Positions 4,199 through 64,000 of a stretch of DNA of 64,000 nt are shown here, one piece after another. The position numbers and the translations under genes are program-made. Positions within the stretch are counted from its first letter, which is position 1. Every line of letters begins with the position of its first letter. The notes beneath the pieces are model-generated. The model ran no database searches and was not told where the DNA came from. It was given only the letters and a program-made list of their open reading frames with translations. Source of the stretch: an uncultured Pseudomonadota bacterium (GTDB lineage Bacteria > Babelota > Babeliae > Babelales > CAIQNR01); NCBI GenBank assembly GCA_964604015.1, contig CAZRXF010000004.1, forward strand, positions 4,861 to 68,860, given 5' to 3'.

Positions 4199-7100
4199 TT
4201 AGTTTTGTTTACTGGCCTTACCTACAAGAGCAGTTACAAAATCTCTGAGTAAAGCGTTAAGTTTTGTTTTATTAGATTCTGCTAGAGCCGGATCTTTGCT
4301 TAATGTCTGTACAAGCGACGATTTTTCAGGAAGTGGAATGTCGGTTGAGGTTATAATTCTTTTCATAAGGTAAAGAAGAAGGTTGCTTGAAAAGCTACTT
4401 AAATTTTTTGCTAGTTCTGGAACGTCGGCTCTAGTAAAAGGTTGCTTAATATTAGTAAAAAAGTTCGGAGTAACCTCTTTTATCTTATGGTATGCCGCAA
4501 GATCTTTAAATAAAGCTTCTTCATCAGCCGTTAAAATCGCCAACAATTGCGCGAGAAATTCGGCTCTTCCTGCTCTTAAGAATTCTTTATGTAGAGGATC
4601 TAGTATTTTGATTTGTTCTTCGGGATTATTCATTAGCGAATTGTAGTTAGAAACTTTTCTTCTAACGTCTCTTATGAAAGGGATTTTTCCAACAGCTGTG
4701 CTATCGGGTTGAGATTTATCGAGATGAGGCTCTAGAGCTTGTCTCCACTCTCGGAGACACGGCAAAAGTTCTGGTAAAAGTTCTAATAAAAGTTTTGCAT
4801 CTTCTTCTTCTTCTTCTTCGATGGATGCTGATAGTAGTGGTTTTGAAAGTGCTTCCAAAGGAGCCGTTATGGATCTTAGGTGATCCCTTTGATTGGTGTT
4901 CGTTAGAAAAAGAATAGATGCTAGTAGGCCTTTGTTAAAATTATCAGTGTCAGGATGAACGAATAGGGCTTCAGTTAATTTTGGTGATATAAAATATGAA
5001 AGATCGTAGTTAGTTATCACTTCTAAAATTTTTTTATTACCAGTTATTTTTTCTATCAAAGCCAATTCTAAAGGGCTATTATGTCCAGGGTTGCTAAAAG
5101 GGAAATAGAATTTTTGTAACTTCATCAAGATATCATTTAATTCTTTCAAAGAGTCTGTAGGAGGGTGTTGAAATAATTCTCCTTGCTCAAACATATCGAA
5201 GATCCGTAATAGACAGTTCTCCCATACCACCTGTCTTGTAAGCCAGGAGTGGTGATTTGTTTGCTCCATCTCATGAATCTCCTGTAGAAATTTTGTATGC
5301 TCTTCGGGGCTCTTAAAAGAGTCAATAAGGGTATCCAAATCTGCAGCTGATTTTGCAGTCATAAGTGTGATGGCTTGTGCGCCTTCTGCGCGTGGTACAG
5401 GGTGTCGAAGAAGAGCGTCTGCTTTCTCCAAAATGGATTGATGACCTAACAAATATGGGGCATTTGTTATTTTTAATGCCTGTATGAAAGCGGGAGTTTC
5501 AGCTTTAATTTTCTGTGCAATAATTCTTCTTGTGGTATCGTCTAACCGAGATGGCATTTTACCCGGAGTATGAACTGCAGAAAAAAAGATGTGGAAAAAA
5601 GGTGCAAAATCTGCGTCAAAAAGTTGAATAAGTTGCTCGTTTGAAGGATCGCCTTTAAGAATAGCATCGAAAAAATTCTCTATTTTTGGAAAAGGATCAA
5701 CGTCTAAGTCTGGAGGAGATTGAACAATAGTTCGAAGCTTTTGAATGAGAGAGTCAACAGAATTTGGTTTTCCTGATGCATCGGTTACTTTTTTTCGACT
5801 CTCACTTTTTGCTTTTTCCGCCTCTGCTTGAGCGCGTCTTGCAGCGGCTTGCTGTAGTTTTCTAATCTGTGCAGCTTCTTGTTTACCACCCTCTTCCTTT
5901 CTTTGTCTGCGGGATAAAATAGGTTCACTTTGAGCAGATGCTATAAATTCAAGAGGGTCGGATTGTTGTTCTGCTTTAGCAGCTGCTGCGGCTGTTCTGG
6001 CCTCTTCTTCTTTCTTTTGTAATTGGCTTATCGGCGCATCTTTTTTAGGAGGTCGTGATGATGTGGCAGTACTTGTAGCAGGGGCAGGCGGTTGCTGCAA
6101 AGATGGTGCCGCTGCTGCTACGGGTAAAACACGAGAAGTGGTGGGCTGTTGAGGTTGTTTTTTTGAAGGTTCAGATGATGGTCTTGGTGCACGAGCGGGA
6201 GCGCTTTCTAAAGTTGACTGCTGCTTTATGTGCTGTCCCTTGGATTGTTGAGAGGTGCTTTGATGTGGTCCAGAGACAGGTACTGACGATTGTGTGTGAG
6301 GAGTAGATTGTTTAGAAGGTGTGGCAACAGCAGTTGGTAGTGGTGCCTGTGGGTTTTTCCCTGTTACAGAGTCTTCTTTTTTGGGGAATTGTAATGCTGT
6401 GGATGCACTGCTGTTTGCTTGTTGTCGTGCGACTGCTGGACGACTTGGCTGTAAAGATGCTTGATGTTTGCGATGTTGAGCTGTTGTAACAGAGGAAGAA
6501 GCAGGGGCTGCTGATGATCTCTGGGATACGGTTTGCAGGGTAGGTTGTAGGTGAGATGGTTCAGAAAAAGGCAGGGCTGGCTGGGCGGCAGCTAGAGGTG
6601 CTTGTTGGGTAGGTGCTGCCTGAGTATCGCTAGAAAGAGATCCATTTTGACTAGGTTGTAATGAAGGTGCGGGGGTAACCACAGGGTTTCTTTTTTCAAT
6701 GTGTGCAGCAGTAAGAGGAGAAGCTTGTGGCTCAGCTGCTGCTGCTAAAGAAGGCTGAGGAGCTGATGGTTGTTCTTGCAAAAGGATTGTGAGGTCACGT
6801 CTTACTTGGTCAAGAGCTTGTTGAGAAAGTCCTGAACCAATAAGTGATAACAGATGCTGAATTGCTCCTTGTTTACCTTTTTGACGTACTAAATCTGGCA
6901 GGCTTACGGACTGGATAAGGGGCATTTGTGCATTGGATGCGCCGTAGTCTACGGGGGGAAGTTGGGTGAAGCTCATAGGTGGGACTGGAGAATACAGAGG
7001 AAGTGGCTGACACATAGGGTGCCCCCACGGTTGTAAAGGATAGCTTGGATAAGGATGGGCTGGAAAAGGATGCGAGTAGAGCGGTGTCCAGAAGCGCGAT

Positions 7101-38691: not shown

Positions 38692-39432
38692 AGTAGGGGT
38701 GTAGCGCCACCCCTTCCTGAAACCCTACTTTTTTTACTTTTATCTTTCTTTGATTCAAGACGCATGTACCCCACTACGCGTGGGGAGGCGCCAGGGGGTG
38801 CTTGTCCACTCCCTTGGAACCAGGACACAACCTTGCAGTTTGATCGCTTTTGACGGCTCCAATCCTCGTTGCGCCCTATCGGTCGACAACTCAGTTCCGC
38901 CTAATAAGGTGTTACCAATCTAGGAACTAAAACAGATTTTTGCTCTGCTGTTTAACCAGTCCAAGTATGAAAGCACTCTCGCTCATTGATCATATTCTTC
39001 TTAACGTCATCCCCAATGAGTGACAGTCGTAGCACTGCAAAAGTGCAGTGACTAGACAAAGCGAATGTCGGGGATCCAGTCAATTTAAAAAACTCTCTTC
39101 ATAGTCATTCCCAATGAATATATAAGGAATGTACCCAATTTTACTGGATCACCGACGCTCACTTTGCCTCGCTGGTGACGACGTCAAGGAGGGTGTGTGA
39201 TTGCTGGCAAGAGAAAACCTAATTCTGGAGTGACTGATAAAATGTAAGTACCCCATTAGGCGGAACTGAGTTGTCGACCGATAGGGCGCAGCGAGGATTG
39301 GAGCCGTCAAAAGCGATCAAACTGCAAGGTTGTGTCCTGGTTCCAAGGGGGTGGACAAGCACCCCCTGGCGCCTCCCCACGCGTAGTGGGGCACATACTT
39401 CTTGAACCAAAGAAAGATGAAAGTAAAAAAAG
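38692..39432. repeat. Intergenic hairpin-mosaic repeat element, copy 1: terminal hairpin, 178-bp inverted-repeat arms and a 349-bp unique core
   Basis: Arms 38728-38905 and 39255-39432 are reverse complements with about 7 mismatches by my manual count. Terminal hairpin GGGGTG-TAGCGC-CACCCC lies at 38696-38713. The arm sequence recurs at 59682-59830. Confidence 0.85.
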
Positions 39433-39458
39433 AAAAGTTGTTTAAAAAGAAGAGATGT

Positions 39459-40346
39459 TCAACCTAAAAGTTTCCGATAGCGTGTGCAGTCCGCTTGTGA
39501 GTGCTTAATTTCTCCACTGCGCTCAGGAGCAAAAAGTGGATCAAGAGGATAATCGAGCTCTTTTTTGAGGTCTTCAAAAAGCTTACGTATTGAACGACTG
39601 GTTCCGGTAGCGATATTGATTGGTTGGCCAGTGCACAAATCAGCAGGAAGTAGGCCTGCAGAAAGATTTGCCTGAACGATCTGATAGACGGGAACAAAGT
39701 CTCGTGTTTGCGTGCCATCACCAAAAATAGTGATCGGCTGTTGTTGCTTCATCCGTTCGGTGAACTTTGCAACAACACCTGAATATTCACTGTGTGGATG
39801 TTGACGAGGACCGTAGACGTTAAAATACCGTAAGCACAGCGTAGGCAGTTGAAATGTCTGAGTGTATTGCTGACACAGCTGCTCTCCAAATAGTTTTGAC
39901 CAGGCGTAAGGCGAAGCAGGGTGGCAGGTAGCTGTTTCTTCACACAGTTTTCCTTGATCACCATAGACGGCGCATGAGGAAGAAAAAACAAAGCGTTCTA
40001 TGTCATTTTTTCGGGCAGCCTCAAGCAGATTACATGTTCCGGTGACATTCGTTTCAAAGCAAAAACGTGGGTTTTCAACTGATTCTGGAACTGAAACTTG
40101 CGCTGCCAAATGGAAAACAGTTGAGGCTCCTTCAAGCGCACGTAGACACGTTGCGGCATCACGAATATCCCCCTCGAAAAAAGTAATTGCGTGGGCAATG
40201 GTAGAAAGATTTTCCTTGGTACCGGTACTCAGGTTATCAAGAACGGTAACCTGGGCGTTACGAGCAACCAATGCTTCAACAAGATGAGATCCAATAAATC
40301 CAGCACCTCCCGTAACAACTACTTTTTTGTTGGCATACTCATTCAT
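39459..40346 (-). CDS. NAD-dependent sugar-nucleotide epimerase/dehydratase (GalE-like SDR)
   Basis: VVVTGGAGFIGSHLVEAL Rossmann motif and YAWSKLFGE (YxxxK). ATGA-coupled to the upstream gene. Confidence 0.8.
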   Translation of the reverse strand: MNEYANKKVVVTGGAGFIGSHLVEALVARNAQVTVLDNLSTGTKENLSTIAHAITFFEGDIRDAATCLRALEGASTVFHLAAQVSVPESVENPRFCFETNVTGTCNLLEAARKNDIERFVFSSSCAVYGDQGKLCEETATCHPASPYAWSKLFGEQLCQQYTQTFQLPTLCLRYFNVYGPRQHPHSEYSGVVAKFTERMKQQQPITIFGDGTQTRDFVPVYQIVQANLSAGLLPADLCTGQPINIATGTSRSIRKLFEDLKKELDYPLDPLFAPERSGEIKHSQADCTRYRKLLG

Positions 40347-44615: not shown

Positions 44616-45176
44616 TTAGACAATTTTTAATTCGTCGTCAGTCAGCACAATGAGTTTTTCAGGATGACGTACTTTAAAAAGTTGTGCCTCCGCACTGTAG
44701 TTCCAGTAGGCGCTACTTGCCTCATACTGAGCCTTACGTATTTTTTCAGTGAGGTAGGTATTGGTATGCGCTGCTGAAAGTTCTTTGTGATATTTTTTTT
44801 CAAAGTGGGCTAGTTCCTGTTTCATCTCACGATATTTGCGATAGACCGAATGACGTTTTGCAAGATACTCATCTCGCTGAGCATTTAGCTTAAGAAGGTC
44901 TGCCTCTTTGTTGTGAAAGGTGTGCCATGCCCGTGTGACGTCCTTTTCTGTTACTGTCTCAGAAACGGGCAGATCGTCCCAGGTCAGGTCGATTACTGGC
45001 TCTTCAAAAAGTGGTACGAGGCTAGGGTTGGGATGGCTCCCGAGATACGCAAGGCGCATTTTTTCATGTTGTTCTGTTATGGTAGATGCTTTGGTCTGAT
45101 GAGGGCTTTTTTTTGCGTATCCATGACCGTGATGTGCAAGAAGATAGGCAACGGTGAGAATAACAGAGCGATTCAT
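44616..45176 (-). CDS. Secreted protein, member B (truncated form lacking the C-terminal domain)
   Basis: The ATG at 45176 follows AAGGA. Signal MNRSVILTVAYLLAHHGHG, then EKMRLAYLGSHPNPS and the same helical region. It ends before the C-terminal domain. Confidence 0.65.
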   Translation of the reverse strand: MNRSVILTVAYLLAHHGHGYAKKSPHQTKASTITEQHEKMRLAYLGSHPNPSLVPLFEEPVIDLTWDDLPVSETVTEKDVTRAWHTFHNKEADLLKLNAQRDEYLAKRHSVYRKYREMKQELAHFEKKYHKELSAAHTNTYLTEKIRKAQYEASSAYWNYSAEAQLFKVRHPEKLIVLTDDELKIV

Positions 45177-45186
45177 AGGGAGTTCC

Positions 45187-46152
45187 TTATTTCTTTTTGG
45201 CCACAACTTCTAGAGTGAAAAGCACGGAATGATCACCGTTTACATGATTTTGAATGATGCAATTTTTGCTGCCAGGGCACGCGTCTTTGCCAACTGTTAA
45301 CGTGTAGTAATTTGTTCCTGTAGATCCGCCAACCATACCCATTGGATTGTTGTTTGAGACGTAATTCATTCCCATTCCAAACTGCATTGCTCGTTTGCAT
45401 TTTGGATTTCTTTTGACTGGGAGCTCAAACAAAGAATAGCTTTCAACTTGTCTGTTGATGCTTCGTTCTACGCCGCCTTGTGGGGATGCAAGGGCAGGCA
45501 GACGAGGATCAGTTTTATCATCGAGCACTTGGCCAGGTACTACTTTGATAGTAGGAGCTTTTTTAGCGAGCTGTTTGACTTCAGCAAGTGATGGTTCTTT
45601 TGGAAATGTTGGCATCGGGAAGTTGTTCCATGGCCCGTGATACGGGTTTTGATGTTCCATTTCATAGGTAAATTGCAGTTGATCAAGAGTAAACCATGCT
45701 TGAGCCAGTTGTGTTTGGGTTGCAATGATCTCCTTGTTATACGGACAGTCTTTCATGACGGTTTCAAGTTCTTTCTGATGTTTCTCTCTGAACGCAGTCA
45801 GGTGCTTTATAAGAGATTCAAGTTCTTTGTAAGCGGGGCTATTTTGTTCGAGATACAGATTCCTTTTTTCTGTGAGAGCTTTGATGTCTTGTTGTAATGC
45901 GTTGTAAGCCTTTTGCGCTTGATTGATTTGTTCTTGCGTAACAGCGGTAGCCTGTGGAAGCGATCGCCAGTGAAGAGGAATGGACGAATGAGGCGTTGGC
46001 ATGATGTTATGTTCAGGATGGAGACGCAAGTACACAAGGCGCATTTTTTCTGCCTCGTCGGCTTGTTTTGCTGTCTTGCTTCCTCCTGGGGTTGCTGAAC
46101 AGAGCTGGAAGGCGGTTAAGAGGGTGAGTAGTGGTTTGATGGATGTATGCAT
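45187..46152 (-). CDS. Secreted protein, member C of the paralog cluster
   Basis: The ATG at 46152 follows AAGGAG. Contains EKMRLVYLRLHPEHN, QVLDDKTDPRLPAL and NYYTLTVGKD...IQNHVNGDHSVLFTLEVVAKKK. Confidence 0.7.
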   Translation of the reverse strand: MHTSIKPLLTLLTAFQLCSATPGGSKTAKQADEAEKMRLVYLRLHPEHNIMPTPHSSIPLHWRSLPQATAVTQEQINQAQKAYNALQQDIKALTEKRNLYLEQNSPAYKELESLIKHLTAFREKHQKELETVMKDCPYNKEIIATQTQLAQAWFTLDQLQFTYEMEHQNPYHGPWNNFPMPTFPKEPSLAEVKQLAKKAPTIKVVPGQVLDDKTDPRLPALASPQGGVERSINRQVESYSLFELPVKRNPKCKRAMQFGMGMNYVSNNNPMGMVGGSTGTNYYTLTVGKDACPGSKNCIIQNHVNGDHSVLFTLEVVAKKK

Positions 46153-53393: not shown

Positions 53394-54326
53394 ATGAACA
53401 TAAAGATACTTTGTTTTGTGGCTCTCAATCTCGTTTGTGCCTGCAGTCTGGTCGTGGCAACGGTGTCGTGCAAGGCGACGGCGCTTACCGGTCAGGAGCG
53501 GCAGGAGTGCTTTGATGTGTGGTCGGGCCAGGAACGTGGGGTCTTCACGGAGCGGGCAGCGCGTGCTATGGTTGCTGACTATTTTAAGGCCAGAGCTGGC
53601 GAATCCTTTCCGGACGGATTATTCACTCCTCGCCGAAAGGATTTTGAGAGCTGGATCGGGGATGTTTTCCTTCTCATGCTCAATAAAGCAAACGTCATTA
53701 GCTTAGCGCGGGAAGACGCAGTGGTTGATGATGTTCGGAATATCGTCAAAGCTTCTCAAAACGACCTTAAAAAGATAGTACAACGAAGGAACAAAAAACT
53801 TTCCCCAACAGAAGTTCATAGGCAAGAGGTTAAAAGACTCGTGGCGTGGATTCGGCTTCTCCCTGAATGGCAGACCTATGAGGAAAGGAAGAGCGGAGGG
53901 TGCAGGCAATCTGATTCTGGGCAGCAGGGGGATTTTGATGTGTGGTATGACCAAGGGCGTGGAGTTTTTACACCACAGGAAGCACGTGCTATGGTAACGA
54001 GATATCTCAAGGTAAAGGCTGGTGAATCTTTTTCGTTCTCTCGGCAAAAAGATCTTGAAGATTTTATGCGGGATTCTCTGCTTGTGATGCTCGCTGGAGC
54101 GAAAATTATTCTCTTAGGCAATCCAGACTCTGAAGACGATGTGAAGGCCGTTGTAAAGCTCTCTCGAGAAAAACTCAAAGAAACGTCTTATGAAGTTGAA
54201 GCACACAACCGGTTCGATGCTCGTCGTCGGCAAGAGGTTAAAAGGCTGGTTGCGTGGATTCGCCTTCTTCCCGAATGGCAAGCATATGAAGACAAGATGA
54301 GCAAGATATGTGGGTGTTCTAAATAG
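53394..54326 (+). CDS. Secreted protein built from two tandem ~141-aa repeats (unknown function)
   Basis: AGGAGGG before the ATG. Signal MNIKILCFVALNLVCACSLVVA. Repeat units start at FDVW (53511 and 53934) and each ends with RQEVKRLVAWIRLLPEWQ[TA]YE. Confidence 0.75.
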   Translation: MNIKILCFVALNLVCACSLVVATVSCKATALTGQERQECFDVWSGQERGVFTERAARAMVADYFKARAGESFPDGLFTPRRKDFESWIGDVFLLMLNKANVISLAREDAVVDDVRNIVKASQNDLKKIVQRRNKKLSPTEVHRQEVKRLVAWIRLLPEWQTYEERKSGGCRQSDSGQQGDFDVWYDQGRGVFTPQEARAMVTRYLKVKAGESFSFSRQKDLEDFMRDSLLVMLAGAKIILLGNPDSEDDVKAVVKLSREKLKETSYEVEAHNRFDARRRQEVKRLVAWIRLLPEWQAYEDKMSKICGCSK

Positions 54327-57865: not shown

Positions 57866-59374
57866 ATGACAAAAGAAAAAGCTCCTGATGCAGCACTGCA
57901 TCACTCCCATGCTGAATCACAAGAACACCTCGTTCGCGTAGAAAAGGTAAAAAAACTGCGCGAAATGGGAATTGAGCCATGGCCTGAAAGTAAACAGGTT
58001 ACTGGTACGTGCCATGAAGTCGTGGAGCAATTTGAGCGTGACGAAGAAAAGGAATATGCCGTTGCTGGACGCTTAGTAGCATTACGCGGTCACGGTAAGA
58101 CTATGTTTGGTAAGCTGCAAGATCGGTCAGGGACAGTGCAGCTTTATTTCAAACAAGACACGCTGGGCGATGAGGCTTTTAGCTTGCTTGAAAAGTTTGT
58201 AGATCTTGGAGATTTGCTTTGGGTTCGTGGTGTTTCTTTCAAAACAAAAACAGGTGAAGTCACGCTTCGTGTTGATGAGTTGACGCTGCTTGCTAAATGT
58301 TTGCATCCGCTGCCTGAAAAATTTCACGGGCTTACTGATATCGAAACTCGCTACCGTCAGCGCTACCTCGATCTGATTACCGATGAGGAAAGCAGGACTC
58401 GCTTTATTGCGCGATCAAAAATTATCAGTGGCATTCGTCACTATCTTGAAGATCATGGGTTTATGGAAGTGGAAACACCGATGCTCCATCCCATTCCTGG
58501 AGGTGCTGCAGCTCGTCCTTTTGTGACGCATCACAATGCACTCAATTCTGAATTTTTCCTTAGAATTGCTCCTGAATTGTACCTAAAACGTTTGGTCGTT
58601 GGTGGTTTTGAACGGGTGTATGAAATCAATAGAAACTTTAGAAATGAAGGAGTTTCTACTCGTCATAATCCAGAGTTTACGATGCTTGAGTTCTATCTTG
58701 CGCATCATGATTACAACTACATCATGGACTTTGTTGAGCAGATGTTGCGTACCGTTGCTTTGCAAGCGCGTGGTACTACACAACTTTCGTTCCATGGTCA
58801 TGCCATTGATTTTTCAAAACCGTTTTCTCGTTTGAGCGTTAAAGACGCCGTGTTACAGTACGGTAAACTGACTGAAGCGGCCATTGCACCTGATGCCATC
58901 GATAAAGAACTGGCAAAGCATGGCATTGAATTGAAAGTAAAAGACACTTCCTATGCACAGAAACTGTTCTTGTTGTTTGAGGAAGTGGCAGAAAAGCAGC
59001 TGATTCAGCCAACATACATTATCGATTATCCTGTTGAAATTTCTCCTCTTGCAAAGAGTGATGCACAAAAACCGGGATTTGTTGCGCGTTTTGAACTCTT
59101 TATTGGTGGTATGGAATTTGCAAATGCCTTTAACGAATTGAATGATCCATTTGATCAGGAACAACGGTTCAGAGAACAAGCAGCAACACATAAGGCGGGC
59201 GATGATGAAGCTCATCGTTATGATGCTGAATATGTGCAAGCGCTGCAATACGGTCTCTTTCCAACCGTTGGGTGTGGTATCGGAATCGATCGTTTAGTAA
59301 TGCTTATGACTGATGCTCCATCAATCAAAGATGTGATTCTTTTCCCTACTCTTAAAAAGAAAGAACTGGCGTAG
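57866..59374 (+). CDS. lysS: Lysine--tRNA ligase (class II)
   Basis: OB-fold N-domain, motif 2 FRNEGVSTRHNPEFTMLEFY, and motif 3 GCGIGIDRLVMLMTD. Confidence 0.95.
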   Translation: MTKEKAPDAALHHSHAESQEHLVRVEKVKKLREMGIEPWPESKQVTGTCHEVVEQFERDEEKEYAVAGRLVALRGHGKTMFGKLQDRSGTVQLYFKQDTLGDEAFSLLEKFVDLGDLLWVRGVSFKTKTGEVTLRVDELTLLAKCLHPLPEKFHGLTDIETRYRQRYLDLITDEESRTRFIARSKIISGIRHYLEDHGFMEVETPMLHPIPGGAAARPFVTHHNALNSEFFLRIAPELYLKRLVVGGFERVYEINRNFRNEGVSTRHNPEFTMLEFYLAHHDYNYIMDFVEQMLRTVALQARGTTQLSFHGHAIDFSKPFSRLSVKDAVLQYGKLTEAAIAPDAIDKELAKHGIELKVKDTSYAQKLFLLFEEVAEKQLIQPTYIIDYPVEISPLAKSDAQKPGFVARFELFIGGMEFANAFNELNDPFDQEQRFREQAATHKAGDDEAHRYDAEYVQALQYGLFPTVGCGIGIDRLVMLMTDAPSIKDVILFPTLKKKELA

Positions 59375-59977
59375 GAGTGTAGCGCCACCTTCGCCGTTGC
59401 GACTTTGTCGCTAAGGCGTAATCACGCCGTAGCCTTGGCGAAGGCGGACCTTACTGTAGCCCTTCTCTTCTTTTACTTTCAGCTTTCTTCTGAACAAGAC
59501 GTATGTGTGCCCTTACGCAGGGCATGCGTAAAAGGGGTGCTTGCCCACCCCTTTTAAAACAGGGCACCAGCCGTTCCTCTGGACCCCCATGACGGCAACG
59601 ACGTTTCGCCGCATCCTTCGGGGGACGGCTCACGGCTCTGCCTGATATGGACCTTTATTAAATTAAATTTAGTCACTCCTTATTAGGCGGAACTGAGTTG
59701 TCGACCGATAGGGCGCAACGAGGATTGGAGCCGTAAAAGCAATCAATCCGCAGGATTGTGTCCTGATTCCAAAGGGGTAGACAAGTACCCCTTTGGTGCT
59801 GCGCGCAGAGCGCATACATACTTCTTGAACTTAAGGCATACTTTGTGGGCCCTCACAAAAAAGGACCGCTTTGGCGCCCTTTCCCGGCGTAAGGGGGTAC
59901 AGATGTCGTGTTCCCACGAGAAAGAGAAAAAGGTCAAAATAAAAAGTAGGGGATTGAGAAGTGGTGGCGCTACACCA
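59375..59977. repeat. Intergenic hairpin-mosaic repeat element, copy 2 (both termini present)
   Basis: Inverted termini GTGTAGCGCCACC (59377-59389) and GGTGGCGCTACAC (59963-59975). A well-conserved arm (59682-59830) is homologous to 39255-39410, and a degenerate inverted arm lies at 59471-59646. A private three-way-junction insert sits at 59385-59447. Confidence 0.8.
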
Positions 59978-60045
59978 GTCTCTAGACCTTTCCCTTTCTA
60001 GAACGGTATAACGAACAGAAATTGTTCTTAGAAAAAGGAAGAGGA

Positions 60046-62235
60046 ATGGGAAAAAAATCGTATCTTTTATATCTTTTTTTGTTGATTCCAGTAGGAGCTC
60101 GGGCAGACGTTAATGATAATCTCAGTTATCTCGTCTCTCAGTACGGCATACAGTATCTCTTTCCGTACTATTACTTTGATATCAACTCTGCGGCAGCTGC
60201 TTTGCGTGGTTCCATGCGTGCGGCATGGACGGTGAAAGGTTGGGTAGGGCTTGGTAGTTTTAGTGATCTTCAGAATGCGTATCTCTACCCACCAGATGGT
60301 GCTGTTCCTGCGGATGTTCGTGCGAAATTACAGGAATTCAATCAGCACGTTGTTGCAACGTCAGAAGTCCCGGAATTTGTAGCCGAACACCCCTTGCGTC
60401 GTGACACTGATCTAGGAAATTTTGAAAAAGAATTCATTACAAATCGATTGAATTATGCAGCGCCTCTCTTTCAGATGGCGGATGAGGATCATCCTTTTGT
60501 AGATCCTGACACAAACCTTACGAAAAACCCAACTCCGTATGGGTACGCGCTTGATGTGCCTTTAGTTGCAGGGGCAGATGTTCCTCGGATTGCCACCTGC
60601 TTTAGTGGAGGAGGATTCAGGGCAATGATTGCAACACTTGGTTTTTGGCAGGCGGTAAGTGACATGGGCATAGCAGGTTCCATTCTGTATAGTGCGAATC
60701 TTTCAGGGTCTACCTGGTGTACCATTCCTTGGACGGTGGGAGCATCATTGCGTGATTTGTATGTGACCTATGAAAAATATGCACACATTTCTGTTGGGGT
60801 AGCGACTTTGAATGATCTGCGTAAATACGTGGTTCCTCCTATGAGCGTAAATGGTGATCTGGGGTATGTGCGTAAAAAATTTGTGAGTGCGTTTTTATGG
60901 GCACAGCCACTTAGTTCGGTGCGTGGACTTTACAGTCCGTTGCTTGGTCAGATGACCCTTTCTGCGTGGGATGATGATCTTTTACGTCAGGCCTATGATA
61001 TTACGCTTCCAAAGCAGTCTTCGCAGTACCTCTATTTTTGGCAGGCAATGGATTTCATTAAAGATGGGACGAAGCGTCCTTTCCCCATTGCAACCTCTTT
61101 GATCCCCTACGCGGGCAATTTCAATGAAGTTGCTTCAAAAATTGCTGTGAAACAGAAATCTTCCAATGGTATTTGGATGGAATTTAATCCTGAATCGGTA
61201 GGATTTGAATATTTCGATAAGAACAAAGACCTGACAGGGGTATGGATTCCTTCGTTTGCCTTGGGAAGATTCTTTAATCCCGTGTACAAAGAACCTTCTC
61301 GGTGGTATCGCATTTTCACAAATAAAACAGTGTTAGGGTATGCCAGTGATCCGGCTCCAGTACACACGTTAGACTATTGGGAAGGAACCTGGGGATCAGC
61401 ATTTACCGTGTCCCCGGCAGATGTGTATCGGATCTTTTTTAAAGAGGTTCCGCCTTCTGAAGATCAAAGTTCAACAGGACTTTCGAGCAGTACTACATTG
61501 ACAGAACGGGTTATTGGGTTACTTGGTAGTGCAGTTGGGGGAGCTGCAACGCTTGGTAAAGAAGTTGCAGCGCTTAGTAATATGAATAATATACGTCTCT
61601 TTCCTGCGTACTTTAATAATTTTGCACCATTTGATGATTCGCCTATTCAAGCTGCTACATTTACGGCCGTTGATGCGGGAATTGATTTTAACCTTCCCTT
61701 TCCTCCTCTTCTTCGCCAATCTCGCGGTGTTGATTTGATTATTGTGGGAGATTGGTCTGAAGCAACGCCTGCCTACCCTGCAAAGCAACTATGTCTAGCA
61801 GAAAAGTGGGCCCAAACGCGGGGAGTTCCATTCCCAAAAATTCTTACTTCAAAGTTTTACAAAACGATCTATGACCGACCTATGACATTGTTTAATGAAT
61901 ACGAAGAAGGTACAAGAGGACCTGCAATTTTGTATATTCCGTTGATCGACAATGAGTTCAACGTTCCTGATTTTAATTTGAATGGCTGTTTTAATGGCTC
62001 TTGTTCAACATTCAACTTTGATTATTCAAAAAAGGGACGTGATGGAGTGAAAGACCTTTCAGAAGAGGTGTACAATATCTTATGGGATCTGTATCCGCAG
62101 ATGAGGCAAGTAGTTCAGCAGATGGTGGTGGCAAAGAATGAGGCCGCTCAGAATCATACGCCCTACCAATTTTCTATGACAATGGCAGATGTCGATCCGA
62201 TTGCACCACAGGCTGCAATTCAAGCTGGTGCGTAG
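60046..62235 (+). CDS. Secreted cytosolic-PLA2/phospholipase-B-type lipase (PLA2_B/PLAc catalytic domain)
   Basis: The ATG at 60046 follows AAGGAAGAGGA. Signal MGKKSYLLYLFLLIPVGARA. Contains FSGGGFRAM (60604-60627), the nucleophile elbow NLSGSTW (~60697-60717) and VDAGIDFNLPFPPLLRQSRGVDLII (Asp codon 61672-61674). This is the GGGFR / G-x-S-G-S / D-x-G-x-x-F-N-L-P pattern of eukaryotic cPLA2. Confidence 0.85.
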   Translation: MGKKSYLLYLFLLIPVGARADVNDNLSYLVSQYGIQYLFPYYYFDINSAAAALRGSMRAAWTVKGWVGLGSFSDLQNAYLYPPDGAVPADVRAKLQEFNQHVVATSEVPEFVAEHPLRRDTDLGNFEKEFITNRLNYAAPLFQMADEDHPFVDPDTNLTKNPTPYGYALDVPLVAGADVPRIATCFSGGGFRAMIATLGFWQAVSDMGIAGSILYSANLSGSTWCTIPWTVGASLRDLYVTYEKYAHISVGVATLNDLRKYVVPPMSVNGDLGYVRKKFVSAFLWAQPLSSVRGLYSPLLGQMTLSAWDDDLLRQAYDITLPKQSSQYLYFWQAMDFIKDGTKRPFPIATSLIPYAGNFNEVASKIAVKQKSSNGIWMEFNPESVGFEYFDKNKDLTGVWIPSFALGRFFNPVYKEPSRWYRIFTNKTVLGYASDPAPVHTLDYWEGTWGSAFTVSPADVYRIFFKEVPPSEDQSSTGLSSSTTLTERVIGLLGSAVGGAATLGKEVAALSNMNNIRLFPAYFNNFAPFDDSPIQAATFTAVDAGIDFNLPFPPLLRQSRGVDLIIVGDWSEATPAYPAKQLCLAEKWAQTRGVPFPKILTSKFYKTIYDRPMTLFNEYEEGTRGPAILYIPLIDNEFNVPDFNLNGCFNGSCSTFNFDYSKKGRDGVKDLSEEVYNILWDLYPQMRQVVQQMVVAKNEAAQNHTPYQFSMTMADVDPIAPQAAIQAGA

Positions 62236-62361
62236 GGCGTGTCTACTTTAAAAAACGATAATCTTAGTAAAAAGTGAACTTGTATGTCTCCATTACGTCG
62301 CCCCCAACGAACAACGTGAGTGTTGGGGGTCCAGTAAATAAAAAAAACAAAATCATCATAT

Positions 62362-62388
62362 GAAAGGGGTAGGAGAGTACCCCTTTTT
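62362..62388 (+). terminator. Rho-independent terminator downstream of the phospholipase gene
   Basis: AAAGGGGTA-GGAGAG-TACCCCTTT followed by a T-run. A second hairpin CCCCCAAC...GTTGGGGG lies at 62301-62329. Confidence 0.6.
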
Positions 62389-64000
62389 TATGGCGTTACT
62401 GCTGGATCAGGCGCAGTGGAAGGGGAGTGAGTATGGTGGTGAGGATTTTCCAGCGTGCCGTGAGACATCATGTAGATCTTGATGCCAAAAATAGCAGCAC
62501 TGAGTGGGAAAAGGAGCCAGTATTTTTTTAACCATTCTTTCCAGTCCATGCCCACGTGAATCTCATTTTTTTCAAGAAATTGGGGAAGCTCTTCCACAAG
62601 GATATCAAGCAGATTGAGGATATCCTCAAGTGGCATTTGTTGCAGTTGGTCAAGAGGAAGCCGCCCTTTTCCTTCAATAAACAGGGGGCGGCACCGGGAA
62701 GAAGCATGGTGCGTTGCCGTTGTATGAAGAAGATGTGTTACAAAACAGGCAAATTCTTTCATGATTTGTTCGTCTTGAATGTATTTATACCGATTTATGT
62801 TGTTCCAAAAGGAAAAAAGGGGACGGAAGGAACGGGTTCGATAGAGCGCTCGAATCATCACCAAGACCGGCTCTTTAGTAATGTTAAGTTGTTCAAGGCA
62901 CGGATCAATTTCATCACCAGTGCTGTTGCTGCAGCTGAGGCGCAAAAGCCCCTGCGCGTTAAGAAGATAGAGTTTGTGAAGCGCGGGTTCCATTCTTTTC
63001 AGGAGATAGAATCGACTGATCACCTTATCAATTTCAATCCATGGCCTGAAATCAGAAAGAAGGGCTCCCTGTTCCTGTGAAAGATTTTTGTAAAGTCGTG
63101 CGGTGGGTGTGGGCTGTGAGGAGAGAAAAATGTGGAGTAACGGGGCATAGTGTTGGTTTGCAGGGGAGCTCAGGACAGTGTGTGAGAGGATAAAAATTTC
63201 TTTGGTAAAATCTTCAATAAGTTTTTGATCACACACATCGCGGTATGCCTTAAAATCTTCCCAGACAAGAGCAAGCGGTTTAAGAAGCAAACTTGTTTTT
63301 GTTGGTTCTGAAGAAGATTCGCGGGAGGTGAGTTTAAGAAGGATTTTTGCTACTTCTTCAAGTCGTTTAATGTAGTAGTAACGGTGAAACACCATATTGG
63401 TAAAAGACTCAGGTGTGGTGTTGTATTCTGTTTTGATGAGGGTACTGATGGAAGAAAGATCGGTAGTTTTTATGTGGGGAACAGAACGAGGAAGGGCCAA
63501 AGGCTCATGAGCATAGGCAGAAAGACGATTGCTGTATTTTTCATTGACCGTATCGATGAGGGTGAGGATTTGTTCTATGGAAAGTTCTTGCAGTTCATCA
63601 AATGTTTCAGTTGATCGAAGTGTGAAAGCGTCTTTGTATACCAGACACAAAAGAAGGAGGAGTTCCTTAGTGAAGGTAGGGCTTTTTATAAAATCAAAAC
63701 TTTGAAATTGGCCAATGACCTGTATGAGTGGGCCAAGATGTTTTTCTTCCAACAACAGAGAAAAATATCCAGCTATCACAGGATCGTTAAAAATAAGATC
63801 TTCTTTTTTAAATCCAAGGTTCTCAACGCCGTGAAGAAGAATAGGAACATTTCGGTCGTGGAGCGATTTGAAAAGCACAAAGCTTGCATGGAGTCTTTTT
63901 GTTAGGTAGTAACGAAGGGCAAAACTTGCGCAGAAATCATCAGTATAGACATGTGGAGTTGGTGGTCGTTGAACGGCAACAAGCGCAAGAGGAGAGTAGC
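62388..64000 (-). CDS. Hypothetical helical protein with C-terminal TM helix and His-rich tail (probably 5' partial)
   Basis: The track ORF 62388-63878 starts at GTG, but I read the same frame with no stop up to base 64000, so the gene may begin beyond the window. C-terminus WLLFPLSAAIFGIKIYMM then ENPHHHTHSPS. Confidence 0.6.
   Translation of the reverse strand, partial: YSPLALVAVQRPPTPHVYTDDFCASFALRYYLTKRLHASFVLFKSLHDRNVPILLHGVENLGFKKEDLIFNDPVIAGYFSLLLEEKHLGPLIQVIGQFQSFDFIKSPTFTKELLLLLCLVYKDAFTLRSTETFDELQELSIEQILTLIDTVNEKYSNRLSAYAHEPLALPRSVPHIKTTDLSSISTLIKTEYNTTPESFTNMVFHRYYYIKRLEEVAKILLKLTSRESSSEPTKTSLLLKPLALVWEDFKAYRDVCDQKLIEDFTKEIFILSHTVLSSPANQHYAPLLHIFLSSQPTPTARLYKNLSQEQGALLSDFRPWIEIDKVISRFYLLKRMEPALHKLYLLNAQGLLRLSCSNSTGDEIDPCLEQLNITKEPVLVMIRALYRTRSFRPLFSFWNNINRYKYIQDEQIMKEFACFVTHLLHTTATHHASSRCRPLFIEGKGRLPLDQLQQMPLEDILNLLDILVEELPQFLEKNEIHVGMDWKEWLKKYWLLFPLSAAIFGIKIYMMSHGTLENPHHHTHSPSTAPDPAVTP

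What the first reader, a model, noticed from the sequence alone, without database searches (positions are those of the whole stretch)
59375..59977. Second, complete copy of the element between lysS and the phospholipase gene, bounded by inverted GTGTAGCGCCACC termini
The copy starts 1 nt after the lysS stop with GTGTAGCGCCACC (59377-59389) and ends with its reverse complement (59963-59975). The right-end subterminal sequence (reverse complement ...CACCACTTCTCAATCCCCTACTTTTTATTTTGACC) is homologous to the left end of copy 1 (CACCCCTTCCTGAAACCCTACTTTTTTTACTTTTATC). Arm 59682-59830 aligns with 39255-39410. The opposite arm (59471-59646) is a degenerate inverted version. The arms are separated by only 35 bp, against 349 bp in copy 1. 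Copy 2 also carries a private three-way junction (stem 59388-95/59437-44, enclosing hairpins GCGAC-TTT-GTCGC and GGCGT-AATC-ACGCC). Modular gain and loss between copies is typical of composite repeat families such as BIME, and may mark the phospholipase gene as flanked by mobile or recombinogenic DNA.
Basis: seen in the sequence. Interest (0 to 1): 0.6.

Follow-up and report, generated by a model that had tools for sequence, protein, structure and literature searches.

The report
Mosaic hairpin repeat inserted after lysS
The 600 bases between lysS and the phospholipase gene are a real inserted copy of a previously undescribed family of hairpin-rich, non-coding mosaic repeats in an uncultured amoeba-associated (Babeliales/TM6) bacterium; it is a new example of a known kind of selfish or structural intergenic DNA, not a new kind of system.

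Summary
GTGTAGCGCCACC sits at 59377-59389 and, inverted, at 59963-59975, and again at the left end of copy 1 (38699). The 599 nt between the termini are an insertion. Four related species (69-84% LysS identity) keep lysS next to the phospholipase gene with only 63-79 nt between them. The junction falls between the lysS stop codon and a conserved CTCTAGAC.

The family has at least four loci in about 84 kb of this genome, plus diverged members in two sister species. The unit is a roughly 225-nt arm made of several hairpins. The stems covary and the loops are conserved, and the arm ends in a terminal hairpin, which is the "terminus" itself.

Modules are shuffled between copies.

There is no conserved ORF, no Rfam hit, no strand bias in wobble pairs and no transposase nearby. 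No target duplication is visible.

Best reading: a non-autonomous MITE/BIME-like mosaic repeat acting at the DNA level. The mobilising enzyme is unknown. The phospholipase gene is syntenic in the relatives, so it is not accessory, although repeat modules flank it on both sides and its 5' end varies between strains.

The parts
59377..59389 (+). Left terminal hairpin (TH): GTG-TAGCGC-CAC(C), the left boundary of copy 2, 2 nt after the lysS stop
   Evidence: the empty-site comparison places the junction here
59388..59447 (+). Private three-way-junction insert (stem CCTTCGCC/GGCGAAGG enclosing hairpins GCGAC-TTT-GTCGC and GGCGT-AATC-ACGCC); about 58 nt that other B arms lack
   Evidence: folds; seen as an insertion in alignments A3/A4; no other copy
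59451..59650 (-). Arm of subtype B (inner end at 59650). Hairpin H1 is TGCCC-ttacgca-GGGCA at 59508-59524. Hairpin H2 is at 59529-59556 (loop CTTGCC on +). The inner core 59590-59647 is identical to L011 2258-2315.
   Evidence: nhmmer E=4e-51; 58-nt exact block; pair I5
59651..59677 (.). AT-rich central spacer between the two arms
59678..59832 (+). Arm of subtype A. The inner core 59681-59734 is identical to copy 1's left arm. H2 is at 59769-59796 (loop GACAAG). H1 is TGCGC-gcaga-GCGCA at 59800-59814. It ends with the motif ACATACTTCTTGAAC.
   Evidence: pair I6
59833..59861 (+). Module H: hairpin GTGGGCCCTCAC (59845-59856) with a T-run before it and an A-run after it; shared with copy 3 (L011 2052-2090)
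   Evidence: alignment A3
59861..59975 (+). Outer half of a second B-type arm (H1 about 59882-59898, A-rich tract) ending in the right terminal hairpin GGTGGCGCTACAC (59963-59975)
   Evidence: nhmmer E=4e-19, model positions 107-215; alignment A3
38694..38914 (-). Copy 1, left A arm with terminal hairpin GGGGTG-TAGCGC-CACCCC (38695-38714), next to the dnaJ promoter region
38915..39246 (+). Copy 1 internal region. It contains the conserved P module (about 39003-39083; AACGTCATCCCCAATGAGTG...GCGAATGTCGGGGATCCAGT), shared with copy 4 (L088 about 6595-6690).
39247..39466 (+). Copy 1, right A arm, 94-95% complementary to the left arm. Its outer end lacks a recognisable terminal hairpin and overlaps the stop codon of the epimerase gene (39459-39461).
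62288..62348 (.). Solo P-like module downstream of the phospholipase gene (CCCCCAAC...GTTGGGGG hairpin followed by TCCAGTAAAT)
62362..62390 (.). Solo hairpin AAAGGGGTA-ggaga-GTACCCCTTT plus a T-run, between convergent genes. It has the same stem class as TH and H2.

Best explanation
Copy 2 is one inserted member of a family of non-coding, non-autonomous mosaic palindromic repeats. It resembles a MITE in having inverted ends and insertion polymorphism. It resembles a BIME/REPIN in being built from hairpin modules in alternating orientation. The host is an uncultured Babeliales (Dependentiae/TM6) bacterium.

The building block is a roughly 225-nt arm. It consists of an inner hairpin core, hairpin H2 (loop RRCAAG), hairpin H1 (loop GCGTAR or GCAGA), the motif ACATACGTCTTGAAC, an A-rich tract and a terminal hairpin. 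Arms come in two subtypes (A and B) and occur singly or as head-to-head inverted pairs. Optional modules (P, H, three-way junction) are found between or beside them.

Shown here:
- The element is absent from the orthologous sites of related species.
- The family sits at different sites in different species.
- The hairpins are kept by compensatory changes.
- Copies exchange patches of sequence.

Inferred: copies were spread in trans by an enzyme encoded elsewhere in the genome that recognises the terminal or internal hairpins, either a transposase acting on inverted ends or a hairpin-binding HUH/RAYT-type enzyme. Only insertions in the few free bases between a stop codon and the next promoter survive. 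Once inserted, the elements act passively. They add a very stable structure, and in several copies a terminator-like hairpin plus T-run, at the 3' end of the upstream gene, and they serve as substrates for recombination and hairpin template switching.
For: 1. Insertion. lysS to phospholipase is 672 nt here but 75, 74, 63 and 79 nt in L013-L016. The sequence TAG-ccttaaa-CTCTAGAC in the relatives corresponds to TAG-ga-[599 nt]-cagt-CTCTAGAC here. The copy-1 site (epimerase to dnaJ) is 819 nt here but 89, 64 and 74 nt in three relatives.

2. A dispersed family. There are four loci in about 84 kb of this genome: the two window copies, L011 and L088 6270-6491. Diverged members occur in L014, downstream of the phospholipase gene, and in L080/L081. 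Eight metagenome contigs end inside elements.

3. Structure is conserved rather than sequence. For H2, 92% of cells are paired, 8 of 11 pairs change on both sides, and 0 of 500 shuffles reach this. RNAalifold on 9 arms finds 13 of 19 pairs with double changes.

4. Non-coding. The arm ORF is broken by a 1-nt indel in copy 2. Only one related peptide exists among 1.8 billion cluster representatives.

5. Not a known RNA. There are no Rfam matches, even at E<=1. Wobble pairs show no strand bias, G.T 7 against A.C 5.

6. Exchange between copies. Exact 54- and 58-nt blocks sit inside arms that are otherwise 72-82% identical. SNP 39291 G/A toggles the one core difference between the two arms of copy 1.

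7. Hairpin-driven mutation. The loop of H2 is exactly inverted between two near-identical strains.
Against: - No target-site duplication can be read at any junction. The nearest empty sites come from other species (83-88% protein identity).
- No autonomous partner or transposase lies in the window or the flanks examined.
- Copies within the genome are 72-82% identical, so no recent transposition is demonstrated.
- Copy number cannot be counted, because the genome is available only as metagenome contigs.
- Exact-pattern scans of 185,579 species genomes, of JGI metagenomes and of viral contigs found nothing.
- Copy 1 has only one recognisable terminal hairpin, copy 3 ends in module H on one side, and copy 4 is a single arm. 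A simple 'two inverted ends' transposon model therefore fits only copy 2.
Confidence: 0.62

Rival explanations
1. REP/BIME-type system in the strict sense. The basic unit would be the roughly 25-30-nt hairpin (AAAGGGGTR-N6-YACCCCTTT and relatives). It would be spread as single-stranded DNA by a domesticated RAYT (Y1/HUH) transposase and kept by the host for termination, mRNA stability or supercoiling. The large elements would be clusters of such units.
For: TH, H2 and a solo terminator hairpin at 62365 share the same stem. Hairpins alternate in orientation and are mixed with other motifs. Every copy sits at the 3' end of a gene. TH followed by a T-run looks like an intrinsic terminator at L011, L088 and L014. 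No target duplication is seen, which fits single-strand transposition. GTAG occurs in the TH loop, recalling the GTAG tag of REPs (PMC3733652, abstract only).
Against: Homology between copies runs over about 225-nt arms plus a 90-nt P module, not just over single hairpins. Only four hairpins of this stem class are present in 64 kb, far below typical REP densities. No RAYT gene was seen. The GTAG lies in the loop rather than at the foot of the palindrome.
Confidence: 0.18
2. A family of large structured non-coding RNA genes. Each arm, or each inverted pair, would be transcribed, and the conserved hairpins would be RNA structure.
For: Strong covariation in H1 and H2, and conserved loops. The fold z-score is -9. 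The inner-to-outer strand folds better as RNA in 8 of 9 arms. Inner cores are highly conserved.
Against: There is no strand bias in wobble against A.C mismatches (7 against 5). Arms occur in both orientations within one element, so a single transcript holds one sense and one antisense arm. No promoter-like or terminator-like signal exceeds chance. There is no Rfam relative. Presence and absence vary between sister species, and truncated or shuffled copies exist. SNPs are enriched in the elements (3 of 5 SNPs in 3.7% of the compared sequence).
Confidence: 0.1
3. Internally deleted remains of one larger autonomous element (an IS or integrated element). The arms would be its long terminal inverted repeats and the copy-1 and copy-4 internal region the last trace of its gene.
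For: Copy 1 has 190-nt inverted arms around 339 nt of internal sequence. Copy 4 shares both the arm and the internal region. Copies 2 and 3 look like deletion derivatives with the arms brought together.
Against: The internal region has no ORF longer than 43 aa and is itself made of palindromic modules. Nothing matches phage or plasmid collections. No full-length version was found anywhere.
Confidence: 0.08
4. Chance similarity, or a local inverted duplication without any spread.
For: None beyond the low number of copies seen.
Against: Three exact 13-mers against about 0.002 expected, and no shuffle comes close. Arm matches reach E=1e-44 to 1e-63 at four unlinked loci and in two other species.
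Confidence: 0.01

Closest known systems
Bacterial interspersed mosaic elements (BIMEs) / REPIN doublets of Enterobacteria and Pseudomonas
   Same: Extragenic, at the 3' ends of genes. Built from imperfect palindromic units in alternating orientation, combined with other short conserved motifs. Module composition varies between copies. Stems covary. No target duplication.
   Different: The homologous unit here is a roughly 225-nt arm of four or more hairpins, where a REP is 20-40 nt. Whole elements measure 450-770 nt. The density seen is low (4 loci in about 84 kb). There is no sequence similarity, and no RAYT gene has been identified.
Bacterial MITEs (e.g. Correia/NEMIS, the Coxiella QMITEs of PMC5896051, the Cardinium MITE of PMC9769881)
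   Same: Small, non-coding, with inverted ends and able to fold into a long hairpin. Intergenic, polymorphic between related genomes, and able to overlap the 3' end or stop codon of a neighbouring gene. Found in host-restricted bacteria.
   Different: No target-site duplication and no parent IS were found. Only copy 2 has two matching ends. The arms are long, internally structured and of two subtypes. Sequence conservation is highest near the centre rather than at the tips.
IS200/IS605-derived palindrome-associated transposable elements (PATEs)
   Same: The ends are defined by (sub)terminal hairpins rather than plain inverted repeats. There is no target duplication. Mobilisation in trans by an HUH enzyme would explain selection for hairpins on single-stranded DNA.
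   Different: IS200/IS605 ends carry hairpins in the same orientation on one strand and insert 3' of a fixed tetra- or pentanucleotide. Here the two terminal hairpins of copy 2 are inverted, and the flanks share no motif (TAGGA, TTTAA, TAGTA, CCAAA, GACTG).
BOX elements of Streptococcus pneumoniae
   Same: Modular non-coding repeats (boxA, boxB, boxC) with a variable number of modules, a stable predicted structure and no known mobilising enzyme.
   Different: BOX modules lie in a fixed linear order rather than in inverted pairs. They are much shorter and unrelated in sequence.

Membership tests
MITE | Terminal inverted repeats | tested here: met
   Copy 2 has a 13-nt perfect repeat, extending to 36 nt at 83% against the copy-1 end. 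Copy 1 has 190-nt arms at 94% but only one terminal hairpin. Copies 3 and 4 are one-ended.
MITE | Target-site duplication flanking the element | tested here: inconclusive
   Filled site: TAG-ga[...]cagt-CTCTAGAC. Empty site: TAG-ccttaaa-CTCTAGAC. No direct repeat is visible, but the empty sites come from other species.
MITE | Small, with no transposase gene and no conserved ORF | tested here: met
   Elements measure 450-770 nt. The arm ORF is frameshifted in copy 2. The longest internal ORF is 43 aa.
MITE | Several dispersed copies and presence/absence polymorphism | tested here: met
   Four loci in this genome, and members at other sites in L014 and L080. Empty sites exist for copies 1 and 2.
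MITE | A related autonomous IS with the same ends | not testable with these tools
   The genome is available only as scattered metagenome contigs. There is none in the window or flanks, and exact-pattern scans of the public collections were empty.
REP/BIME | Unit is a 20-40-nt imperfect palindrome with a conserved GTAG/CGTC tag at its foot | tested here: inconclusive
   Hairpin units of 25-30 nt are present (TH, H2, H1). GTAG occurs inside the TH loop (GTGTAGCGCC), not at the foot.
REP/BIME | Mosaic of units in alternating orientation with other motifs, in an extragenic position | tested here: met
   Alignments A3, A4 and A6. All copies lie between genes, at the 3' end of one of them.
REP/BIME | High copy number (hundreds per genome) | not testable with these tools
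   Only about 84 kb of the genome could be read. It holds 4 composite loci and 1-2 solo modules.
REP/BIME | A cognate RAYT (Y1 transposase) gene in the genome | not testable with these tools
   Not present among the annotated neighbours.
IS200/IS605-type PATE | Left- and right-end hairpins in the same orientation on one strand; no inverted ends | tested here: not met
   The copy 2 loops read TAGCGC at the left end and GCGCTA at the right end on the + strand, so the hairpins are inverted.
IS200/IS605-type PATE | Insertion 3' of a fixed tetra- or pentanucleotide | tested here: not met
   The flanks of six terminal hairpins share no motif.
Known structured RNA families (Rfam 15) | A covariance-model match | tested here: not met
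   Nothing at the gathering score. At E<=1 there are only two chance-level hits: tpke11 at 18 bits and WsnRNA46 at 20 bits.

The most novel reading that the evidence does not exclude
The arms would be the cis-acting substrates of a hairpin-recognising single-strand DNA enzyme not yet described in Dependentiae, in effect a 'giant REPIN' system of 450-770 nt. The conserved loops (RRCAAG, GCGTAR, TAGCGC) would be protein contact sites. The exact loop inversion seen between two strains would reflect a flip-flop step of that mechanism rather than a replication error. An alternative of similar novelty is that single arms are a new class of large structured RNA.
Probability: 0.12. Interest if true: 0.7.

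Novelty: new member of a known kind. Interest (0 to 1): 0.4.

Why it matters
Dependentiae (TM6) are reduced-genome intracellular parasites of protists. The one cultured Babeliales genome was reported to hold a single IS4 transposase and no other mobile DNA (PMC4378268). A dispersed, recombining repeat family would give this clade three things:
- a source of genome plasticity;
- a reason why its metagenome assemblies break (eight contig ends fall inside elements);
- markers for strain typing.

The elements sit precisely between stop codons and the next promoter, and in one case they supply the stop codon. They therefore probably reshape 3' ends and insulate neighbouring genes from read-through. 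The covarying hairpins with fixed loops point to a specific binding partner that could be looked for. None of this changes general understanding of such elements.

Tried and rejected
- **Exact-pattern scans.** The A-arm 27-mer against 185,579 species genomes gave 0 hits. The B-core 30-mer and a gapped A pattern against JGI metagenomes gave 0. The A and B patterns against viral contigs gave 0. All three collections therefore contributed nothing to the census.
- **Six-frame protein search.** That search was wasted.
- **HMMER search with the arm peptide.** Against 1.84 billion representatives, only P0001 is real. P0122 and P0123 are translated tandem repeats unrelated to this family.
- **Protein-coding reading of the arm ORF (57-63 aa).** Rejected, because copy 2 has a frameshifting 1-nt indel.
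- **Known RNA families.** Rejected.
- **Promoter and terminator scans of both copies.** Nothing above the shuffled expectation.
- **Strand-specific RNA function.** Not supported by the wobble asymmetry, G.T 7 against A.C 5.
- **TCATYCCCAATGA as a dispersed motif.** It occurs only twice, both times inside copy 1, which is no more than chance allows.
- **RRCAAG counted across loci.** Uninformative.
- **Plasmid and phage collections.** No similarity.
- **DGR-like diversification of the phospholipase gene.** Considered and dropped, because the differences in the L002 allele are not adenine-specific.

Full report
**1. The observation**

The lysS ORF ends with TAG at 59372-59374. After GA comes GTGTAGCGCCACC (59377-59389), and its exact reverse complement lies at 59963-59975. 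The 13-mer is found exactly three times in the window, the third at 38699, the left end of copy 1. No dinucleotide-preserving shuffle approaches this.

The subterminal homology with copy 1 (36 nt, 83%), the arm match 59682-59738 / 39255-39311 (96%), and copy 1's own 190-nt arms (94% complementary, 339 nt apart) are all reproduced. The three-way junction near the left end is predicted in folds of the element and of the arm alone. It has no second copy anywhere in the sequence I held. The element folds about 9 sd better than shuffles on either strand, as any large inverted repeat would.

**2. The organism**

The window's LysS and DnaJ occur only on metagenome contigs (ENA, Logan, one NCBI record) that are 99-100% identical to the window. 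The nearest genomes by LysS are unnamed MAGs at 84, 83, 77 and 69% identity, then a 'Candidatus Babeliales' MAG at 64%. DnaJ relatives carry the name Dependentiae. The host is therefore an uncultured Babeliales (TM6) bacterium.

**3. It is an insertion**

In L013, L014, L015 and L016 the same two genes are adjacent, with 75, 74, 63 and 79 nt between them, against 672 nt here.
- L013 and L014 read TAG-ccttaaa-CTCTAGAC.
- The window reads TAG-ga-[GTGTAGCGCCACC ... GGTGGCGCTACAC]-cagt-CTCTAGAC.

The boundaries thus coincide with the terminal hairpins to within 2-4 nt. CTCTAGAC, followed 18 nt later by TAYAAY, looks like the phospholipase promoter; that is my inference from conservation. If so, the element occupies the only free bases between the stop codon and the next promoter.

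No target duplication is visible, but the empty sites come from other species.

Copy 1 behaves the same way. The epimerase-dnaJ spacer is 819 nt here, against 89 nt (L084, 88% DnaJ), 74 nt (L094-96, 84%) and 64 nt (L085-87, 77%). A fourth relative (L080/L081, 86%) has about 950 nt there, containing one diverged arm in the same orientation.

**4. More copies and the real anatomy**

Translating the arm and searching proteins found one 58-aa 'gene' (P0001). Its contigs carry copy 3 (L011 about 2040-2488), directly after a TPR gene. Walking 9 kb upstream of the window found copy 4 (L088 6270-6491), directly after an MshEN-domain gene. A sister species has a diverged member downstream of its phospholipase gene (L014 7720-8400).

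Aligning all arms shows a unit of about 225 nt:
- an inner core beginning (C)CTTATYAGG;
- hairpin H2 with loop RRCAAG;
- hairpin H1 with loop GCGTAR or GCAGA;
- the motif ACATACGTCTTGAAC;
- an A-rich tract;
- a terminal hairpin.

The 'terminus' is this hairpin, and its stem changes in step between copies:

| Copy | Terminal hairpin |
|---|---|
| Copy 1 | GGGGTG-TAGCGC-CACCCC |
| Copy 3 | AAAGGGGTG-TATCGC-CACCCCTTT |
| Copy 2, right end | TGGTG-TAGCGC-CACCA |
| Copy 4 | GGAGTAG-AACG-CTACCCC |
| L014 | AAAGGGGTG-CTTTGT-TCACCCCTTT |

Its inner 58 nt are identical to the B arm of copy 3, while the rest of those two arms is about 70% identical. Likewise 54 nt are identical between the A arms of copy 1 and copy 2.

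Copy 2 is therefore, from left to right: TH, a private three-way junction, arm B (inverted), a spacer, arm A, module H, then the outer half of another B arm with its TH. Copy 3 is H, arm A (inverted), a spacer, arm B and TH. Copy 4 is TH, arm A and an internal region. Copy 1 is TH, arm A, an internal region and arm A'.

The internal region shared by copies 1 and 4 carries a roughly 90-nt conserved palindromic module (P). A P-like module stands alone at 62288-62348. Another version, with a covarying inner hairpin, lies in a relative (L094).

**5. Coding, RNA or DNA?**

- *Coding is excluded.* The only ORF shared by arms is frameshifted in copy 2, and it has a single relative among 1.84 billion protein representatives.
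- *Structure is selected.* In H2, 92% of cells pair, 8 of 11 pairs show changes on both sides, and no shuffle or register shift comes close. RNAalifold on nine arms recovers H2 and H1 with 13 of 19 pairs compensated.
- *Nothing points to one strand.* G.T and A.C mismatches are balanced, 7 against 5. Each paired element contains one arm in each orientation. Promoter and terminator scans are at chance. Rfam gives nothing.
- *The elements accumulate variation.* Three of the five SNPs seen among population contigs fall in the 3.7% of compared sequence that is element. My binomial estimate is P of about 5e-4.

I therefore read the hairpins as DNA-level features, either recognition structures for whatever spread the family or structures maintained by hairpin-templated repair. 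An RNA gene seems unlikely.

**6. Dynamics**

Arms at different loci are 72-82% identical (A) or 77% identical (B). A and B arms are 57-65% identical to each other. The two arms of copy 1 are 95% identical. The family is thus old, and the exact 54-58-nt blocks are best explained by patchy conversion between copies. The SNP at 39291 (G/A) toggles exactly the base that distinguishes the two copy-1 arms in their core.

Two strains of a sister species (dnaJ 99.6% identical) differ in H2 by an exact inversion of the six-base loop, CTTGCC against GGCAAG. Six clustered changes nearby re-pair the extended stem, and the rest of the arm is identical. This is the signature of intrastrand template switching in a quasi-palindrome, or of a flip-flop process.

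**7. Likely consequences (inferred)**

Every copy abuts the 3' end of a gene:
- Copy 2 starts 2 nt after the lysS stop.
- In copy 4 the stop codon TAG (L088 6275-6277) lies inside the terminal hairpin.
- The degenerate outer end of copy 1's right arm overlaps the epimerase stop.

At copy 4 and L014 the terminal hairpin is followed by a T-run and faces the upstream gene, like an intrinsic terminator. At copy 3 the terminal hairpin also has a T-run, but it faces the 5' end of the downstream gene instead. A solo hairpin of the same stem class serves the convergent gene pair at 62362-62390. The elements probably terminate or insulate transcription and stabilise upstream mRNA, as REP/BIME elements do. 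That comparison rests on established knowledge of those families and was not tested here.

**8. The phospholipase gene**

It gives only a sub-threshold PLA2_B match (17.6 bits against a cutoff of 23). It is syntenic with lysS in four relatives, so it is not an accessory island.

Family modules lie on both sides of it (copy 2 upstream; the P-like module and the solo hairpin downstream). L014 carries a full element on its downstream side. And contig L002 is identical to the window through the element, then switches at 60041 to a 78%-identical allele.

**9. Comparison and verdict**

The element works like a MITE/BIME-type mosaic repeat. It cannot be filed strictly under MITE, because no target duplication and no parent IS were found. 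It cannot be filed under REP/BIME, because the unit size is wrong and copy number and RAYT are untestable. It fails two defining features of IS200/IS605-derived elements. No sequence relative exists in phage, plasmid, genome, metagenome or viral collections at the sensitivity available.

It is a new family of a known kind, in a phylum whose cultured representative was reported as almost free of mobile DNA (PMC4378268). Interest is moderate. The enzyme that moves it and the true copy number remain unknown.

Noticed in passing
L080 9808-9850 vs L081 7398-7441: Two strains of a sister species (dnaJ 99.6% nt identical) differ in hairpin H2 of the arm by an exact inversion of the 6-nt loop (CTTGCC against GGCAAG). 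Six clustered flanking changes re-pair the extended stem, and the rest of the arm is identical.
   Followed up: partly
window 60041-60187 (L002 12176-12322): Contig k141_4260506 is identical to the window through lysS and the whole element. It then differs at 35 of 147 positions at the start of the phospholipase gene, encoding a variant N-terminus. This is either a second allele or paralogue, or a recombination breakpoint 65 nt past the element.
   Followed up: partly
window 62288-62348 and 39003-39083; L088 ~6595-6690; L094 ~1090-1290: A second palindromic module family (P: GTCRTCCCCAAYGA...hairpin...ATGTYGGGGRTCCAGT). It occurs inside copies 1 and 4, alone downstream of the phospholipase gene, and in a relative with a covarying inner hairpin.
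   Followed up: partly
window 62362-62390: A solo hairpin AAAGGGGTA-ggaga-GTACCCCTTT plus a T-run lies between convergent genes. It has the same stem as the terminal hairpin and H2 of the elements. It resembles the hairpin after the phospholipase gene in L014 (ATGAAAGGGGTG...CACCCCTTTTT).
   Followed up: partly
L088 6271-6288: The stop codon (TAG, 6275-6277) of the MshEN-domain gene lies inside the terminal hairpin of copy 4. The element appears to supply the last codons and the stop of that gene.
   Followed up: no
window 38714, 39291, 59482: Three of the five SNPs seen between the window and population contigs fall inside the two elements, which make up 3.7% of the compared sequence. The SNP at 39291 (G/A) makes the right arm core identical to the left arm core.
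   Followed up: partly
contig ends: L003 (window 59580), L093 (59884), L006/L010 (38798), L008 (38737), L009 (39349), L082/L083 (inside the L080 arm): Eight independent metagenome contigs end inside elements, as expected for repeats or strong hairpins that break short-read assemblies.
   Followed up: no
window 1604-26792: A run of very large minus-strand ORFs (836, 1092, 1987, 1088, 1352, 1051 and 766 aa). The 1987-aa ORF has no Pfam hit on record, and the other six gave no Pfam match at E<=0.001. They may be effector or surface proteins of this intracellular bacterium.
   Followed up: no
window 53816-53894 / 54224-54302 and 45012-45065 / 45997-46050: Two pairs of direct repeats (79 nt at 81%, 408 nt apart; 54 nt at 70%, 985 nt apart). 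They are probably repeated domains or tandem paralogues within coding sequence.
   Followed up: no
L080 9018-9452 (-): In the sister species, the expanded epimerase-dnaJ spacer also holds a 144-aa ORF with a signal-peptide-like N-terminus and no Pfam hit. It is absent from the window and from the empty-site relatives.
   Followed up: no
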